Assembly: GCA_977018835.1 (NCBI GenBank)
Contig: OZ361258.1
Location: forward strand, 3,782,001-3,846,000
DNA from: Minutocellus sp. GHC0000111
Lineage: Eukaryota
Direction of reading: 5' to 3'
DNA length: 64,000 bases
The notes under the pieces are model-generated. The model was not told the origin of the DNA, made no database searches, and worked only from the letters and a program-made list of their open reading frames with translations. The position numbers and the translations under genes were made by a program. Positions 11,810-20,712 of the stretch are shown here, in pieces; the stretch's first letter is position 1, and every line of letters begins with the position of its first letter.

Positions 11810-13445
11810 TTATACATGCCCTGCTCCCATCTCTACATCCTCATCTCCATCGGTGCCCATCATGATCATTTGTTGGCGCTTGTCATCAGTTTCTGCTTTA
11901 ACAGCTTCGGTCCTTGTCCTTTTCCTTGTTCTTGCCACCCGAGAGTTTCGCTCCCGCCTCTCCTCGACCTTTGGATTGGATGCCCTCTCCTCAGCCTTGA
12001 ACTGCGCCGTCTGTTGGGCCTCATGTCCCTTGACGCCCTGAGTCCGACGATCTTCCTTAACGCCCTCTTGGTGGGCTCGCTCTACAAACGATTCGTCGAG
12101 CCAATAGATGCCGCCCCATCCATTCTTCACTAGCCAAATGTGTGTTGGTCCAAGATGTGATCTTCGAGTAAGTGCCACTTGGGCGTCATGCTATTGCCGA
12201 TTGCCCGTGCTTGCTTGAGGGCACTTGCAATCAATGCTTCAAGCTCTCTCACAGCCTTCTTTGCCTCATCATCCCATTTCATGTACCATTTCAGAAACCT
12301 GGAATGTGTTGCGTCAAGAGTGTGGAGCAAATTAGAGCAAGCTTTGCAGAGCTCTTTGATGTCGTCATCCGTCATGCCATCTTCCTCGCGATTGTGCTCT
12401 AGGAGAGTTCCTTTGGTGGAGGTGTTGTGGTGGATGAACTCTATTGTCCTTGGTTTCTTCTTGTTGTTGCCTGCCATCAGAAATGATAAAGCTCTCCAGC
12501 ATTCTGCCAGCACTGCCCTTGTTTTACCTGAGTCGGCCGCCTCAATGCCGGCCTTTTTCAGGAAATGGAAGTGAGGGGCATCGTCATCCTCGGCATCATC
12601 GACAGCTCCCATCTCTGGCTCGCCATCACCGTGCTTCTGACGATTCTTCTCAAAGTGCTGCTGCATGCATGATGCTTCATGTGTAGCGTCCTCTCTTGCA
12701 ATGTCAGCTTCGTCCTCATAAAAGGGCACACAGTCCTCGTCTTCGTCGTCATCGTCCTCACTGATCTCGCCGGCCTCCGTCGTGGTCAGGGTGCCCACCG
12801 TCCCAACATCGTCGTCATTGTCCCACCCATCGTCCTGGCCATTATGTGCCCACCAGGGAACTTCTGGGCCTCGAGCAACATCTGCCTGTTGATTTCGTAG
12901 TCCATCGCCGCATGTCCCACCGACGTGTGTGGTGCGGCCGACTTGAGGAATGCATTGCATGCCTTCGTCAAATTGAGCCGCGGCGGCGGTGTTTCGAGGC
13001 GAAATTGTTGCTCGACCGTGACCATGTCGAAAGCCATCCATCCATCATCATGGTGGAGAGCGTCGGCTGCACGAGGATTGATAGAACCGAGGCGAACAAA
13101 CATGCTCTTTTTGTGTGGGGTTCGCTGAACGTCGTCGGCAAGGCAGTGTCTTGATGCCATTTCATCCCATCCATTCTGGTTGTCTGTCCTCACAAAAAAC
13201 ACATCGTGGTCTTCGTGTTTCTTCTTCTTCAAACCCAAGATGCCCGCAGTGTGCATGACGGCGCCGTGCATGATGGGACTGCATCCCAACACATTCATCA
13301 AGGAGTCGTTGTTGTTGCCGATGAAATTGTAGTGATGAAGTTCCTTTCTGCGAAGACTGACGAGCAGTTCAGCCAGGGCGTCCTGCACCGCAATTCTGTC
13401 TGCGGTGTTGACCGCGGGATTGCGGCCGTTATTTTTTTTGCTCAT
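11810..13445 (-). mobile_element. Decayed, internally deleted DNA transposon ORF (Chapaev/Transib/RAG1-like C-terminal core)
   Basis: Three ORFs (13445, 13041, 12178) are each offset by +2. The joined C-terminus reads MTPKWHLLEDHILDQHIW...DESFVERAHQEG, matching the TPKxHxxxxH ... ExxExxH pattern. Strongly TA-depleted. No confident TIRs. Confidence 0.6.
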
Positions 13446-13900
13446 GGAGAACTATGGATCAAGACCAACGGGAACATCACCAGGATGTCGGGAGCACCTG
13501 GTTGGTCTCGTGCCGTAATTCTCCCACACCAGCGCGAGATGTCGCCTTCGTTCTGCACGTAGCGGCGGCAATTTGAATTTTTGCTGCCATGGTGGCTCGC
13601 GTTGGGCGCGCCGGTCGGTTGCTTCGCGCGCCGGCCGGCCACCGAAAGTGCGACCAAAAGCATGCGAGTCATCCGGCTGGCAGATGGTGCTGTGGATTGA
13701 TTGAGTGTGATCGTGTCCCTCTTTCGTGCGTCATCGGCGCGATTTCCGCCACTCTGCTGCTCTGCACTTCACTTTGCAACTTTGTGAACTGCTCGTCACC
13801 ACACCATGGCTCGGTCCAACCGCTTTCCCCTTGCAAACACCATTGCTTTAGGTCTGCCTGCACTTGCATAACGCACGAGAAAAAGTATTTGCCACGCACC

Positions 13901-14563: not shown

Positions 14564-15350
14564 AAGAAAGATGTCATTAATGTGTCGTCAATGGAAACTA
14601 AATGTCATGAACAATTCCAACTAGATCTAATTTAGCAAATCTACACACACTACAACATATTGTTCATGCAGAATGTACCGGTATGTAGAGTCTACCGCGG
14701 GGGTGATGATGTTGAGCATGCACCAGCTAGATCTAGCTCTGGCGCAGTTGCGTCGTCGTCGCATCGCATGCATGTGCCTAGGCAGGCAGGACACGAGCTC
14801 GCACCTTTCGATGGTGGCTGGTGCATTTCTCTACTCATTCGTAAAGAAGGCGCTGGCTGGTGGTAATAAGAGTAAGGAGCAGAAGGCATAACTTATCGCA
14901 TAAAGGGATAAAAAGGATACATGTAATGTAACTTCGTTTACCGGCACCAGTGGGAGCTAGCTACAGCATTGTTGGGTGGAAGCTACGGTACGTGATGAGT
15001 ATACGTACGTAATGTCGTCTGTCCATCGTCCTCGGTACCGTAGTACCGTAGTACCTTTCGGTTTCAGAGGATTTGTAGAGGGTATACCAATAACCCCTAA
15101 AAAAAGGTCATTCTTGCACCCATTTCTCATTTCCCACCACGTGTTTTGTTAGTCGACATTCTCTTCGGGAGGAACGCAAATGCTCCTCAACTCGTGGATA
15201 TCTACTGGACCTGCTCATTCAGTAGGTTGCCACCGACCAGTAGTATCCACTGAATTCGCAGGTCCAGTAGATTCTGGCAGGAACACACACGTGTTTTTTG
15301 GTCCCCCGCACACCCTCTCTCTCACACCGCAACCCGCAAATTTTGTGACG

Positions 15351-18237
15351 ATGACGACGACCAACCAGACCACGCCCAAAAAATACAAACGCAGCAGAAC
15401 TTCGTTCTCAGGGAGCAAGAGAGGCAACACCAAGGCATCCAGGAAGGCGGCAAAGGCGGCAGCTGAGCCGAAAACACCATCGCCGAGCGCAAACACGTCG
15501 AAGAAGCGGCCACGGTCAAATTCGCCCGCCAAACCGTCACCGTCGTCGGCGAAGAAGAGGACGGCCCCTCCTCCTATCCCCATGGCCTTTCTCCTTGCAG
15601 CAGATGTCATTCGAAGGGCTGGTAAGGATCTGTGGTGGAGAGTAACCCCCGATTCCTGCGGCAAAGATGACATTTGTGTTGGTTCTCGGCAGAAATGGGA
15701 AGGAAGAAGACGTCCTCCCTGCTTTCATCGAGGCCGACTTGTTGCGTTCCAAGTCCGTCGGTGGAGGAAAGTGTGAGCTACAGTACAACGAGGAAAAATG
15801 GAAGGACATGCAGCAACAACATCTCAAGGAGCATTGTAGTTTGAAGTTGCACTTGTCGACGTGTCGGCCGAGAGGGAAGACAAGAGACGCAGGGCGCTTT
15901 GTGTTTGTGCTCACAGGTTGCGTAAAAAGAAGGAGGACAACCACCCGAAATTCTCTGGACCGGAGGGACAGAAGGTGCACGAGAAAAGAAATCCCGATGA
16001 AGTTCTGTTCTCTGGGCGCTCGACTGTCTTAGCTACTAAGCTAGGTGAGAGGTTGTCAGCTCACAGAAAGGAGGCACAGTCAGCGCATTGCGAAGCAAGA
16101 GCAAAATCACTAGTCGACGAGGCCAAGAAACTGGGTTGGATGCCAGCAAGTCTCCTCAGCATACTGAAGGGAACTGGTGATACTTCCGCCACTGAAGCAG
16201 CTGCAGCCTCCCCCAATGATGAAGGTTTAGGAGGAGCCGATGCTTCCATTGTCTGTGCCACCTCCAGTGACATTGATGAACAGGTAAAGGTCGCTCTCGG
16301 CCTCGACTTTGTTGTTCGGATGGCCAACGATGACATGCTCCGTCCTCCTCGTCCCAATGCAACCGTCACCGAACCAACACCAATCAGAAAAGAAAAGCAG
16401 GCGAATGAAAGAATGCGGTTCAGCGCCGTGGCTCTCGCGGATTGGTGGGGATGCGGCGACCCAACTCGCACGTGTGAAGACCGGCAACAAATTGCAACTG
16501 CCGCGTGTCGGCAAGTTGCGCACGATCACGGTCATGCCAAGTCAACCGGTGGTTCTCAGCTTTACAAGTGGAGAGACCAGCTCTACAAAAGCCTTACTGA
16601 TGGCATCAGCAATCCCATCGGCGGAAAGGAGGTTCGTGGAAGGAAGAAGGCGGCATGCACTGACATGATCGAGGAGAAGGAGCCAGGACATCTCCGCGAG
16701 CTGCATCGGCATGCTACTCGGATGAAGGGTGCGATGGCAACCTTTAAGGAGCTAGCTGACTGCATGAGCGCAAAATCAGCTACTCCAGATGAAGATAGGC
16801 TGACAATTAGTCTCCATCGTCTTCAGCTTTTTCGCTGGTGGAAAAAGCAAGGCGGTAAGGAGAAGTCGTCGATCGAGAAGCCGAGGCTCACCCCCGAATG
16901 TTGTAGGAAGCGACTTGATTGGATCGAAAAGTGGGAGGACATTACGACCGATCCCAACATTCCTTTAGCGTATCTTGATGAAAAGTGGTTTTACGCTGCT
17001 ACTCGGCGACGAAAGATCAAGATGTTGCCACTTTCTGACGAAGAACTAAGCAGTCCGAACCTCGCGTCTGTCCATGCTTCCGAGGCAAGCCCGAAAATTC
17101 GATCCAGAAGACACCCTGTCAAAGTTATGCATCTTGGAGTTGTTGGCCGACCAATGAAGGATGAAACCAAAGACGTTGATTTCAATGGGCGCATCATGAT
17201 CAAGAGAGTCGCCAGGGAGCAGAAGGTGGAAAAGCTTACGCGTAATCAGAATTTCTCTCCAGATGCTAAGGTCAACGATGCGCTAAAAAATGACAAAGAT
17301 TGGCGCGACATTTACGACGAGAATGCTGACATGACCGCCGGCCATCTTTGCGACCACATTGCCGAAATCTACGGCCTTTCTGAGTTTGTTACAGAGCGAT
17401 TGGAACTTCAATACGAGGACTATAAATCCGACGGTCAGGCAAAAAGTCGCAAGCATGCCGCTGTTGGCTACAATCAAAAGATCTCGAGTCTCAAGCGACA
17501 CACTCCTGATAGCAATGGAGAGAAGGTGAAGGTTGAGATCGACGACCTTGAGCTCGGGGTGCGGCATCAACGGGGCGATAAGGTTACCAAGGACTGTAGC
17601 TGCGACTCCAAATGGATGTTGGAGACTATGAATGAGGTCGGGAAGGCGATTCGAGACGCACATCATTGGGTGAAGTGGGATCCACAAAATATTCAGGAGT
17701 CTGATGTTATGTGTCTTATGATGGACAATGCCGGCGGTCATGGGTCCAATGAAGCAGTTGAGAAGTACACCGAGGACCTCAAAAACAAATATAAGATTGA
17801 GATAATCCAGCAGGTTCCTCGGTCGCCCGAGACAAATGTTCTTGATCTCGGCATCTGGATGTCTTTGCAGTCGGCCGTCAAAAAGGAGCATCGCGGTCAG
17901 AAGAATGATGCGAATGCTCTTGACAAGAGACTGTGATGAAAGTATGGGCCAATGTCGCATCAAAAGAGGCCTTTCTCAATGTATTTGGGTTAGGGTTAGG
18001 CTAACCCTAACCCTAACCCTAACCAGTGATATATAACAACATCAAGAGAAGTCGTGGCGGTAACAATCTTGTGGAGACCAGACGGGGAAAGGCTGGTCTC
18101 TCGCAAAAATTGCCGAGGAAGAAGCTGAAGAGGATGGTGAACCACTCTGGCCAATTGATGCTCCCGGCGAAGATGATGACATTGAGGACGACATAGATGA
18201 AAATGATGAAGACGATGGAGTCATTGATTTGCTATAA
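15351..18237 (+). pseudogene. Frameshifted DD39D transposase of element 1 (about 950 aa if repaired)
   Basis: YLDEKWF (D1), MDNAGGHG (D2) and PRSPETNVLDLG (D3), with 39 residues between D2 and D3. Frameshifts near 15665, 15925, 17928 and 18100, plus a telomeric tract at about 18000. Confidence 0.88.
17987..18024. repeat. Head-to-head interstitial telomeric repeats GGGTTAGGGTTAGG|CTAACCCTAACCCTAACCCTAACC
   Basis: Read directly from the sequence: TTAGGG units immediately followed by CCCTAA units. Confidence 0.9.
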
Positions 18238-18564
18238 CTTATCATAGCATGTCCATTTCTATTCATTACATTTTGATTTGGTGCTTCCAAAAATGCATTT
18301 TTTTCCCGGGGTGAGGAATGCAAATGTCGAAAAAAAAATCATCACATAATGTACATTTATTGGTTCTGGTGCACAATATCTCTCGACTATATGTAGAAGT
18401 TGGTGACCATAACTTGGTTCTTGCCCCGACTTCCATATTGGCCGTCATTTATTCCTCGGAGTTAGAAAAAGTGAGCTTGGATTTTTGGTCTTGTGTGGTC
18501 GTGTTTCTAATACGTCATCATCACGTCACTTTCAAATCCTCTGAACTCGAAAGGTACCTACGCC

Positions 18565-18586
18565 TAGGCCTAGGTACCTAGGCCTA
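18565..18586. repeat. Perfect 22-bp palindrome TAGGCCTAGGTACCTAGGCCTA in the spacer between the two mariners
   Basis: Self-reverse-complementary; built from TA, CC and GG units. Confidence 0.9.
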
Positions 18587-20445
18587 CGAGGTCAGATTCG
18601 CGAGAAATCGACCGCCCGGATTTTGACTGCTTTCGAGGGGATTGAAAAGCGCCTCGAAGAATAGTCATGCTGAAATATTTAAGAAAATGGCTATTTTTAC
18701 TCTAATTTTGATTTATCTTCATGTGAAACAATAATTCGGATAAGACTTTAGATTTCAGCGGCTCTAATCAAATGGACGCGTTCGTCGCACTTGGACCGGT
18801 ATACTGCTTCCCAACGAGTGCCGATGATTCATCTGATTCGGCCGCCTTCCGTTCTGTCATCGACGATCTTGCAACGGCGACCCGGCGGTATACTGCACCA
18901 TGTCTCTTTGCAATTGCCAAGTGCAGGGAGCAGGCAAAGGTGGACTATTCGGTGCTGTCCAGCGCAGAGCATGGTGCACGATTTTCGGGATGGATGAAGG
19001 CGTATGGTGCTCTACCTGCATCTGAGAAGGCGATGTGGGAGATGAAGAGGAGATCTCATCTGGCTATGCAGCCATACATTCGAGATGTTATTGTTGATGC
19101 TCTGATACGAAATCCTCGGGAATCTTGGCGGGAGCTGGAGGTGGATGTCAACTTTTGGTGTTCCTACTCGGCAATACGGCGGTGGATAATGTCGCGGGAA
19201 GGGTTCCGGTACTATGCCGAAAGGATCATCCCTCTCCTTACTACACATCAGATGGAGAAACATTTGGCATTTGCGCGGAAATTCCGAAACAATTGGGGGC
19301 TCGGCGGTGGCAAGTTTCTCCTTGTTATGTTCGATGAGAAGTGGTTTTGGGGCTTGGTTCTTCGATCGCATGCCAAGCAAGTTGCAGAATTGGGTATTGA
19401 TCCTCGGTCCTTCTCGGCATATCACCGAAATCACATCAACAAGTGCATGGTGGTGGCTGTCACTGCCTTGGCTTTTATTGACAGCATTGAGAATGGCGGC
19501 ATTGCGTTCAAGCTTGGACTTTTTCGGGCTCAGGCGCATAAAATTGCGAGGCAGATGGTAAGGGAGGCGGTGCGGCAGGCAGATGGTAGAATCAAATATT
19601 GCGGCCCGGTGGTTCGGAAGAAAGACGATCTATACCTTGTGGATTGCGCGGTGACTGGATGCAGCCATGGCACCCTTGATAATCCCAAGTTCCCACTGAA
19701 AGCTTTGTTTGAGAACAAGATATTTCCGGATGTTGAGGCTTTGGTCGGACCTGGCGGAAAGTTTGAAGGCTATGTCCCTATTTTCCAGGGCGACAATGCT
19801 GGGCCCCATGCCGAGACTGAATTTGTGGAATATGTGGACGGAAGGATACTGTCGGGACAAGGGATGGCGTTGGGAACCTCAGGCCCCGCAAATGCCCCAT
19901 ATGAATGTTCTTGATCTGTCTGTTTTCCCTTGCATGCCAAAGCAGCATACAATGTTGTGCCGCGATCGGGAGGGGCTGAAGGTTTTGACAGAGGATCAGA
20001 CTTGGGATGCAGCGGAGGAAGTTTGGATGGGGCTGGAAAACTGGAAGATCGCATCGGCATACATCCAGGCTCATAGAATTGCAAAGAAGGTAATCGTTGC
20101 AAAAGGCAACAATGATTTTCTTGGAAACGGTGAAGGCATTCATGTTGGGGTGCGAAAGGATTTCAGGCCGACTGAAAATGGCATGGTTCGGATAGATGGG
20201 AAAATTATCGCTCCTCCTCCTGCTGATCCAACCATGGATAATTAGTCCTGCGGTGCTTTTAAGTTATATTGTGTTTAATAATACTAGATTGGATTGTAGA
20301 TCTGGATACTAGCTGCTGCAATACATGTACTTTGCATCGTACATGTATTCAATGCCGGTAGATCTAAGATTCAGGCGGTTGCGGGCCCAAAAAGTCGCTG
20401 TTTTGGTCCCGACCCTGCGCTCGATTTCTCGCGAAACGGACTTGG
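18587..20445 (+). mobile_element. Tc1/mariner (DD39D) element 2, 1.86 kb, with about 29-bp imperfect TIRs and TA flanks
   Basis: Left TA|CGAGGTCAGATTCGCGAGAAATCGACCGC versus reverse complement of the right end TA|CCAAGTCCGTTTCGCGAGAAATCGAGCGC; shared 15-bp exact core TTCGCGAGAAATCGA. Confidence 0.85.
18772..20245 (+). pseudogene. DD39D transposase of element 2 with a single +1 frameshift at about 19837
   Basis: FDEKWFW, QGDNAGPH and PQMPHMNVLDLSVF. Removing one G in GTGGACG joins ORFs 18772 and 19709 and restores exactly 39 residues between D2 and D3. Confidence 0.88.
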
Positions 20446-20712
20446 TAGGTAGGATAGGAAAGCTGCATGCGAACCCGGAGGCCGTTTGAAGATGGGTCTG
20501 TCCGTCCGCCCGAAAGCACTCCTGACTGGAAGCCATCGTTGATCAGAGTTGAGCGTAGTAGCGCGCGTTCCTTTCCTTCCGATTCTCATTGATCTTGGCT
20601 CTCTTCTAATAGTACCAGTAGTTGGCTCCCCCCTTGTCGTTCCTTTCCGTGTGGCAGAGAACGCACACATCTTGAACTCGTCGTCGTGCTATCGATCACC
20701 CAATCATCAGTC

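What the first reader, a model, noticed from the sequence alone, without database searches (positions are those of the whole stretch)
17987..18024. Head-to-head telomeric repeats inside a transposase reading frame
Seen: NVF codons, then GGGTTAGGGTTAGG CTAACCCTAACCCTAACCCTAACC, then A GTG ATA TAT AAC (VIYNNIKRSRGGNNLVE). The flanks read on as transposase, implying an ancestral sequence close to TTT GGT AGG CTA CCA GTG (FGRLPV), which has a telomere-like seed on each strand. Inference: a double-strand break in the element was extended by telomerase at both ends and then re-ligated with almost no loss. That would be telomerase-associated TE inactivation rather than a chromosome fusion, since both TIRs belong to one element.
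Basis: partly seen in the sequence, partly recalled or inferred. Interest (0 to 1): 0.75.

Follow-up and report, generated by a model that had tools for sequence, protein, structure and literature searches.

The report
Telomere scar in dead diatom transposon
In a diatom genome, 7 bases inside a broken jumping gene have been replaced by 34 bases of chromosome-end repeats facing each other, likely a DNA break that telomerase extended on both sides before the ends rejoined, a rare kind of repair scar already described in vertebrates.

Summary
Three Illumina studies and 9 of 9 sister copies that reach the site read TTT GGA AAA CTT CCA GTG (FGKLPV), not FGRLPV. So 7 bp (AAAACTT) were lost and 34 bp gained (12-nt G-rich arm, 22-nt C-rich arm), net +27. 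There is no telomere-like seed, only a host GG in register at each outer junction (about 1 in 317 by chance). The flanks are colinear parts of one Tc1/mariner (DD39D) element with both TIRs, so this is a break-repair insertion, not a chromosome fusion. Best reading: telomerase extended both broken ends, which were then joined. Copying from telomeric DNA cannot be excluded, and no read set holding this copy was found. The insert is not needed to kill the copy, which has frameshifts and stops upstream. The same structure and model are published for vertebrates; my searches found no diatom case. Side result: this family and its neighbour show TpA-to-CpA/TpG hypermutation (half of conserved Tyr become His/Cys) like that reported for Bigelowiella, plus many small duplications; a link to the break is untested.

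The parts
17989..18000 (+). G-rich arm of the insert, 12 nt (G TTAGGG TTAGG), added to the left break end
   Evidence: window vs empty site printed
18001..18022 (-). C-rich arm of the insert, 22 nt; reads TTAGGG x3 TTAG on the minus strand, added to the right break end
17987..17988 (+). host GG in register with the telomeric repeat (left junction); the 7 bp AAAACTT that follow it in sister copies are lost
   Evidence: loose-end consensus in runs X2, X3, X17
18023..18024 (-). host CC (GG on the minus strand) in register with the telomeric repeat (right junction)
15054..18554 (+). Tc1/mariner-like DNA transposon copy (element 1), flanked by TA on both sides, degenerate
   Evidence: TIR pair I2; ends printed; contigs of other copies stop at 15051 and 18557
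15051..15075 (+). left terminal inverted repeat with target TA
18533..18557 (-). right terminal inverted repeat with target TA
15346..18237 (+). broken transposase gene; intact relatives are 852-961 aa with catalytic D444, D693, D733 (DD39D in P0001); the insert lies about 48 codons after the third D
17926..17927 (+). 2-bp tandem duplication that shifts the frame and ends the ORF at 17936, 62 bp upstream of the insert
   Evidence: absent in all 8 runs laid that cover it in part or whole
18583..20449 (+). neighbouring Tc1-like element (element 2), also frameshifted; its family shows the same TpA signature
   Evidence: TIR pair I1; PF01498 E 1.5e-6

Best explanation
A 34-bp head-to-head telomeric insert replaces 7 bp inside one decayed Tc1/mariner copy of a diatom, and is likely the scar of a double-strand break whose two ends were each extended by telomerase and then joined. 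Shown: the empty site, the 7-bp loss, the two arms, the 2-nt in-register GG at both outer junctions, the colinear flanks, the other lesions in the copy. Inferred: the break was trimmed to TTTGG-3' on one side and CACTGG-3' on the other; each GG primed on the telomerase template; 12 and 22 nt were added; the C-rich strands were filled in; the two new ends were joined blunt (two G-rich ends share no pairing bases) by end joining. The scar has no function; it is a neutral lesion in a copy that is dead with or without it.
For: Empty site identical in 3 of 4 runs laid (X2, X3, X17; three Illumina studies; the fourth contig stops 6 bases short). A contig of X20 has 810 letters on 844 bases with 34 gaps, 7 listed elsewhere plus 27. 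Of 22 sister-copy proteins examined, 9 reach the site and all 9 read FGKLPV. Both arms point G-rich 5'-3' away from their host end, the polarity of telomerase addition. Two or more in-register bases at both junctions: about 1 in 317 under a random-phase null; in-register bases occur at 31 of 40 horse ITS and short deletions are the commonest change (PMC7215372, section 2.5 read). The same head-to-head form at break sites, with a second telomerase proposed, is reported for 3 of 41 vertebrate TERC-ITS loci (PMC8537989, section 3.2 read). Host is a diatom (best named UPF1 hits Odontella 81%, Ditylum 77%); T. pseudonana and P. tricornutum use TTAGGG (PMC8329260, PMC3622300, passages).
Against: No telomerase-RNA-derived bases outside the template are present, so nothing separates telomerase from a DNA polymerase copying telomeric DNA. 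This species' telomere unit is untested (no genome held) and N. inconspicua has a variant 12-mer. TRAP found no telomerase activity in P. tricornutum. The filled allele rests on one assembly: no run holding this copy was found. One event gives no enrichment test. The empty site comes from sister copies, not from this copy's own earlier state.
Confidence: 0.6

Rival explanations
1. Telomerase-independent repair: each broken end annealed by its GG to telomeric C-strand DNA (or telomeric RNA) and was extended by a repair polymerase before joining, or a ready-made head-to-head telomeric fragment was captured by microhomology-mediated end joining.
For: Predicts the same anatomy: 2-nt microhomology at both outer junctions and a short deletion. 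Cancer-genome telomere insertions show microhomology in 79% of cases and were ascribed to NHEJ/MMEJ with telomeric DNA (10.1101/157560, passages). No telomerase activity was detected in one diatom. The family is rich in other small repair- or slippage-type insertions.
Against: Needs two separate template invasions or a rare pre-formed fragment; only 2% of cancer insertions were two-sided. All 34 bases are perfect repeats. The right arm ends in GGTTAG and the left in GGTTAG plus one G, the end phase of vertebrate-type telomerase products (recalled, not from a call; post hoc and weak; no diatom template found in the main text of PMC8287931).
Confidence: 0.27
2. Sequencing or assembly artefact in a high-copy repeat.
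For: Single assembly; no independent reads of this copy; repeats are poorly polished, and the copy has many small insertions relative to sisters.
Against: Reported nanopore errors turn telomeric repeats into other repeats or one repeat into another (PMC9414165, passages), not 7 unique bases into 34. Flanks are colinear and not inverted. The other odd features of the copy also occur in Illumina contigs (TpA variants in X3, a 3-nt duplication in X17). UPF1 of the window is 100% identical to a protein from a separate short contig (P0116).
Confidence: 0.08
3. End-to-end fusion of two chromosomes, or a translocation between two different copies each healed with a telomere stub.
For: Head-to-head arrays are the mark of fusion ITS. 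The family has hundreds of near-identical copies (275 proteins in one cluster), so the two halves cannot be assigned to one copy by sequence alone.
Against: No subtelomeric sequence on either side; the halves join within 7 bp of exact colinearity, which two independent breaks in two copies would rarely give; one TIR pair with TA on both sides.
Confidence: 0.05

Closest known systems
Short interstitial telomeric sequences inserted at double-strand breaks, head-to-head subtype (mouse lemur and Xenopus loci; PMC8537989, PMC7215372)
   Same: Short perfect TTAGGG array at an internal site, empty ancestral site, short deletion, in-register host bases, two arms head-to-head, two-telomerase model.
   Different: Diatom rather than vertebrate; no telomerase-RNA fragment beside the repeats; only 34 bp; empty site known from paralogous transposon copies instead of orthologous loci.
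Fusion ITS (human 2q13)
   Same: Head-to-head (TTAGGG)n(CCCTAA)n orientation.
   Different: Flanks are two halves of one gene, not two chromosome ends; arms are 2 and 4 units long.
Two-sided telomere insertions and short germline telomeric insertions in human genomes (10.1101/157560; 10.1101/2023.11.30.569101)
   Same: Telomeric repeats at break sites with microhomology and small deletions.
   Different: The germline examples seen in the passages are one-directional arrays; two-sided cases are defined within 10 kb, not shown to be rejoined at base level.
TpA-specific hypermutation of integrated viral DNA in Bigelowiella natans (10.64898/2026.01.13.699255)
   Same: Applies to the host element, not the insert: TpA to CpA or TpG, sparing a host gene.
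   Different: Here in multi-copy DNA transposons of a diatom; the preprint's main text has no mention of diatoms or indels; strong site-to-site variation here.

Membership tests
short ITS inserted at a DNA break | few exact telomeric repeats at an internal site | tested here: met
   34 of 34 bases fit TTAGGG/CCCTAA; genes on both sides
short ITS inserted at a DNA break | empty ancestral site with colinear flanks | tested here: met
   3 of 4 runs; 9 of 9 sister proteins reaching the site; paralogous, not orthologous
short ITS inserted at a DNA break | end-joining-type change at the site | tested here: met
   7-bp deletion
short ITS inserted at a DNA break | host bases in register with the repeat at the 3' break end | tested here: met
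   GG at both ends, about 1 in 317
short ITS inserted at a DNA break | repeat equals the host's telomere unit | tested here: inconclusive
   no genome held; two model diatoms use TTAGGG, one a variant
TERC-ITS | fragment of telomerase RNA outside the template next to the repeats | tested here: not met
   no non-repeat base in the insert
fusion ITS | head-to-head orientation | tested here: met
fusion ITS | flanks are two former chromosome ends | tested here: not met
   flanks are consecutive codons of one transposase
Tc1/mariner (DD39D-type) transposon | TIRs flanked by TA | tested here: met
Tc1/mariner (DD39D-type) transposon | DDD catalytic triad with 39 residues between the last two D, Tc3-type HTH | tested here: met
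   D444/D693/D733 in P0001; PF01498 in 10 of 31 relatives, DDE_3 in 1; P0001 itself has no Pfam hit and the PDB match to SETMAR is weak, E 0.35; the DD39D label is recalled
Bigelowiella-type TpA hypermutation | changes are TpA to CpA or TpG | tested here: met
   151 of 310 conserved Tyr to His/Cys in 22 copies, 0 of 105 His and 0 of 105 Cys changed; 32 of 40 listed DNA differences fit; 47 of 562 in family 2
Bigelowiella-type TpA hypermutation | host genes are spared | tested here: met
   UPF1 0 of 27 conserved Tyr to His/Cys (1 to Ser) vs 12 of 22 in the element, Fisher P 7e-5; one gene only, and under selection
Bigelowiella-type TpA hypermutation | raised per-generation rate in mutation-accumulation lines; responsible enzyme | not testable with these tools
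   needs cultures

The most novel reading that the evidence does not exclude
Diatom transposons are attacked by a targeted TpA-editing defence whose repair intermediates break the DNA; most breaks heal as small tandem duplications and a few are extended by telomerase at both ends and rejoined, so head-to-head micro-telomeres would be enriched in edited transposons genome-wide and would record both the defence and the diatom telomerase template.
Probability: 0.12. Interest if true: 0.72.

Novelty: new member of a known kind. Interest (0 to 1): 0.36.

Why it matters
As a single scar it matters little: it changes nothing in a dead copy, and the class is known. It is a clean example because hundreds of sister copies fix the ancestral site to the base, and it would extend two-ended telomeric break repair from vertebrates to a stramenopile, a group in which telomerase activity has been hard to detect. 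High-copy transposons make a natural assay: every such insert has a known empty site, so a genome scan could give the rate, the end phase and any enrichment. The TpA hypermutation of the host family is the larger biology here, though it has a published parallel and earlier notes in this scan.

Tried and rejected
Whole-genome scan for other head-to-head junctions: no genome held, so enrichment in transposons is untested. DNA of sister copies: 0 hits in viral contigs, 0 in metagenome contigs, no answer from the search for related loci. Read check of the filled allele: none of 8 runs laid (of 24 listed) showed it, but this is no evidence: best word share was 0.74, two letters private to this copy (15773, 18437) are absent from all four runs, rows at repeats are skipped and human-like records are filtered. 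Telomere-like peptides in the 351 proteins fetched: only one unrelated low-complexity hit; weak, since such inserts carry stops, and only 15 of the 275 members of the main cluster were listed. Dating the insert by its 6 of 6 unedited TpA: rejected, because editing per site runs from 0 to 100% and sites preceded by a pyrimidine, as in the insert, are cold. A TpA lesion or a nested mariner excision as the cause of the break: the lost 7 bp hold no TA, and nearby TAs are intact. Fold-back synthesis from one arm: the centre lacks the self-pairing junction it needs. The empty site is a small hairpin (TGGAA-AAC-TTCCA); noted, not distinguishable from chance. Literature: searches listed no diatom or algal head-to-head short insert; searches listed no diatom TpA paper (one search found the Bigelowiella preprint); one search found no diatom DD39D paper. 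Subscription journals and all supplements were not seen.

Full report
Observation. The window holds GGGTTAGGGTTAGG followed directly by (CTAACC)x4 at 17987-18024, the only such array in 64 kb (3 matches of TTAGGGTTAGG, all here; 0.01 expected). It lies in a 3.5-kb element bounded by a TIR pair and TA (15054-18554), between a thioredoxin-like gene and a second Tc1-like element. The host is a diatom by the best named UPF1 hits. No whole genome was held.

The element. Intact relatives are 852-961 aa (P0001, P0002; 88-89% identical over the part searched) with a DD39D triad; 10 of 31 aligned relatives hit the Tc3-type HTH family. The family is large: one cluster has 275 proteins, the 15 listed being mostly from megabase contigs, among them P0103, which equals the window's ORF.

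The empty site. Laying contigs of four runs on the left flank gave the same continuation after 17988 in 3 of 4 runs from three Illumina studies, AAAACTT CCAGTGATATATAAC; the fourth contig ends at 17982. This is TTT GGA AAA CTT CCA GTG, FGKLPV, as in all 9 of the 22 sister-copy proteins that reach the site. A contig of run X20 has the expected 27-letter shortfall. So the event removed 7 bp and added 34 bp: 12 nt G-rich on the left end, 22 nt G-rich on the minus strand of the right end.

Junction anatomy. Left, host TTTGG is followed by G TTAGGG TTAGG; right, on the minus strand, host CACTGG is followed by TTAGGG x3 TTAG. Both host ends offer GG in register with the repeat; under a random-phase null this happens at both ends about 1 time in 317. 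The two added ends meet with no pairing bases, so the final join was probably blunt (inference). The right arm ends in GGTTAG and the left in GGTTAG plus G; this fits a vertebrate-type template (recalled), but no diatom template was found in the main text of PMC8287931, so I give it little weight.

Mechanism. The simplest account is a double-strand break, slight trimming, telomerase extension of both 3' ends primed on GG, fill-in and end joining (0.6). A repair polymerase copying telomeric DNA, or capture of a head-to-head fragment, predicts the same sequence (0.27). Artefact (0.08) cannot be closed without reads: no run among the 8 laid of 24 listed holds this copy, so the missing filled allele says nothing. 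Fusion or translocation between copies (0.05) would need two breaks within 7 bp of the same place.

Not the killing blow. The insert brings stops in frame, but the copy has a frameshift 62 bp upstream (17926) and others at 15699, 15883 and 18097, and 12 of 22 conserved tyrosines are changed. The order is unknown; my attempt to date the insert by its unedited TpA sites failed because those contexts are cold.

What is known. Short ITS are established scars of break repair: short deletions are the commonest change and 31 of 40 horse loci have in-register bases (PMC7215372, section 2.5 and passages). Head-to-head stretches at break sites with a second telomerase proposed are described for 3 of 41 TERC-ITS loci, and no enrichment in transposons was seen there (PMC8537989, section 3.2 and passages). 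Two-sided insertions are 2% of cancer telomere insertions (10.1101/157560, passages). My searches listed no diatom or algal case (listings only; supplements and subscription papers unseen). So this is a new member of a known kind, in a new lineage.

Side result. In 22 sister copies, 151 of 310 conserved tyrosines are His or Cys while 0 of 105 His and 0 of 105 Cys change; many sites show both His and Cys, which needs a TA ancestor. 32 of the 40 DNA differences listed fit TpA to CpA/TpG (53 further rows were not shown). The neighbouring family shows it at a lower level (47 of 562; 67 sequences), UPF1 does not (0 of 27), and Illumina contigs carry such variants. This matches the Bigelowiella preprint (abstract and passages) and two earlier notes of this scan on other diatom genomes. 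The copies also gain small duplications: 8 of the 10 extra stretches listed for this copy are exact tandem duplications, 3 of them in homopolymer runs, and proteins show 12 in-frame insertions (8 exact duplications) against 3 deletions (only 12 of 136 indel rows were shown). Against a link with the telomeric scar: the lost bases hold no TA and the nearby TAs are intact. The link stays a hypothesis.

Verdict. Real in the assembly, correctly read as break repair in one element, wrongly reconstructed in detail, not the cause of inactivation, and already described in kind. Interest 0.36.

Noticed in passing
window 15054-18554 and 18583-20449; proteins P0003-P0115, P0236-P0351: TpA to CpA/TpG hypermutation in two Tc1/mariner families (about 50% and 8% of tyrosines). 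Editing per site runs from 0 to 100%; hot Tyr codons mostly follow a purine and cold ones a pyrimidine, hinting at an RTAY preference that I did not test statistically.
   Followed up: partly
window 15099-18331: Insertion-biased small tandem duplications (1-7 bp) in this copy and single-codon duplications in sister copies; one also in an Illumina contig.
   Followed up: partly
window 12130-13451 and 1-1000: Strong TpA depletion with CpA/TpG excess (TpA ratio 0.20-0.36); the 12-13.4 kb ORFs have under 1% Tyr, 7-8% His+Cys and no good Pfam hit; probably an older, heavily edited mobile element.
   Followed up: no
window 14808-15053 and 18555-18586: Insertion hotspot: short TA-rich repeats (GTACCGTA, CCTAGG) that look like mariner footprints; in run X7 the left flank is deeper than its neighbour and continues into a different TIR, and X1 and X7 have 17 more letters there. 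Two flank differences (14967, 14971) also fit TpA editing.
   Followed up: no
window 15200-15272: 24-bp inverted repeat with a 25-bp spacer in the 5' untranslated part of element 1.
   Followed up: no
runs X2-X6, X8-X10, X17: The family appears in 9 RNA libraries; contigs alone do not show that it is transcribed.
   Followed up: no
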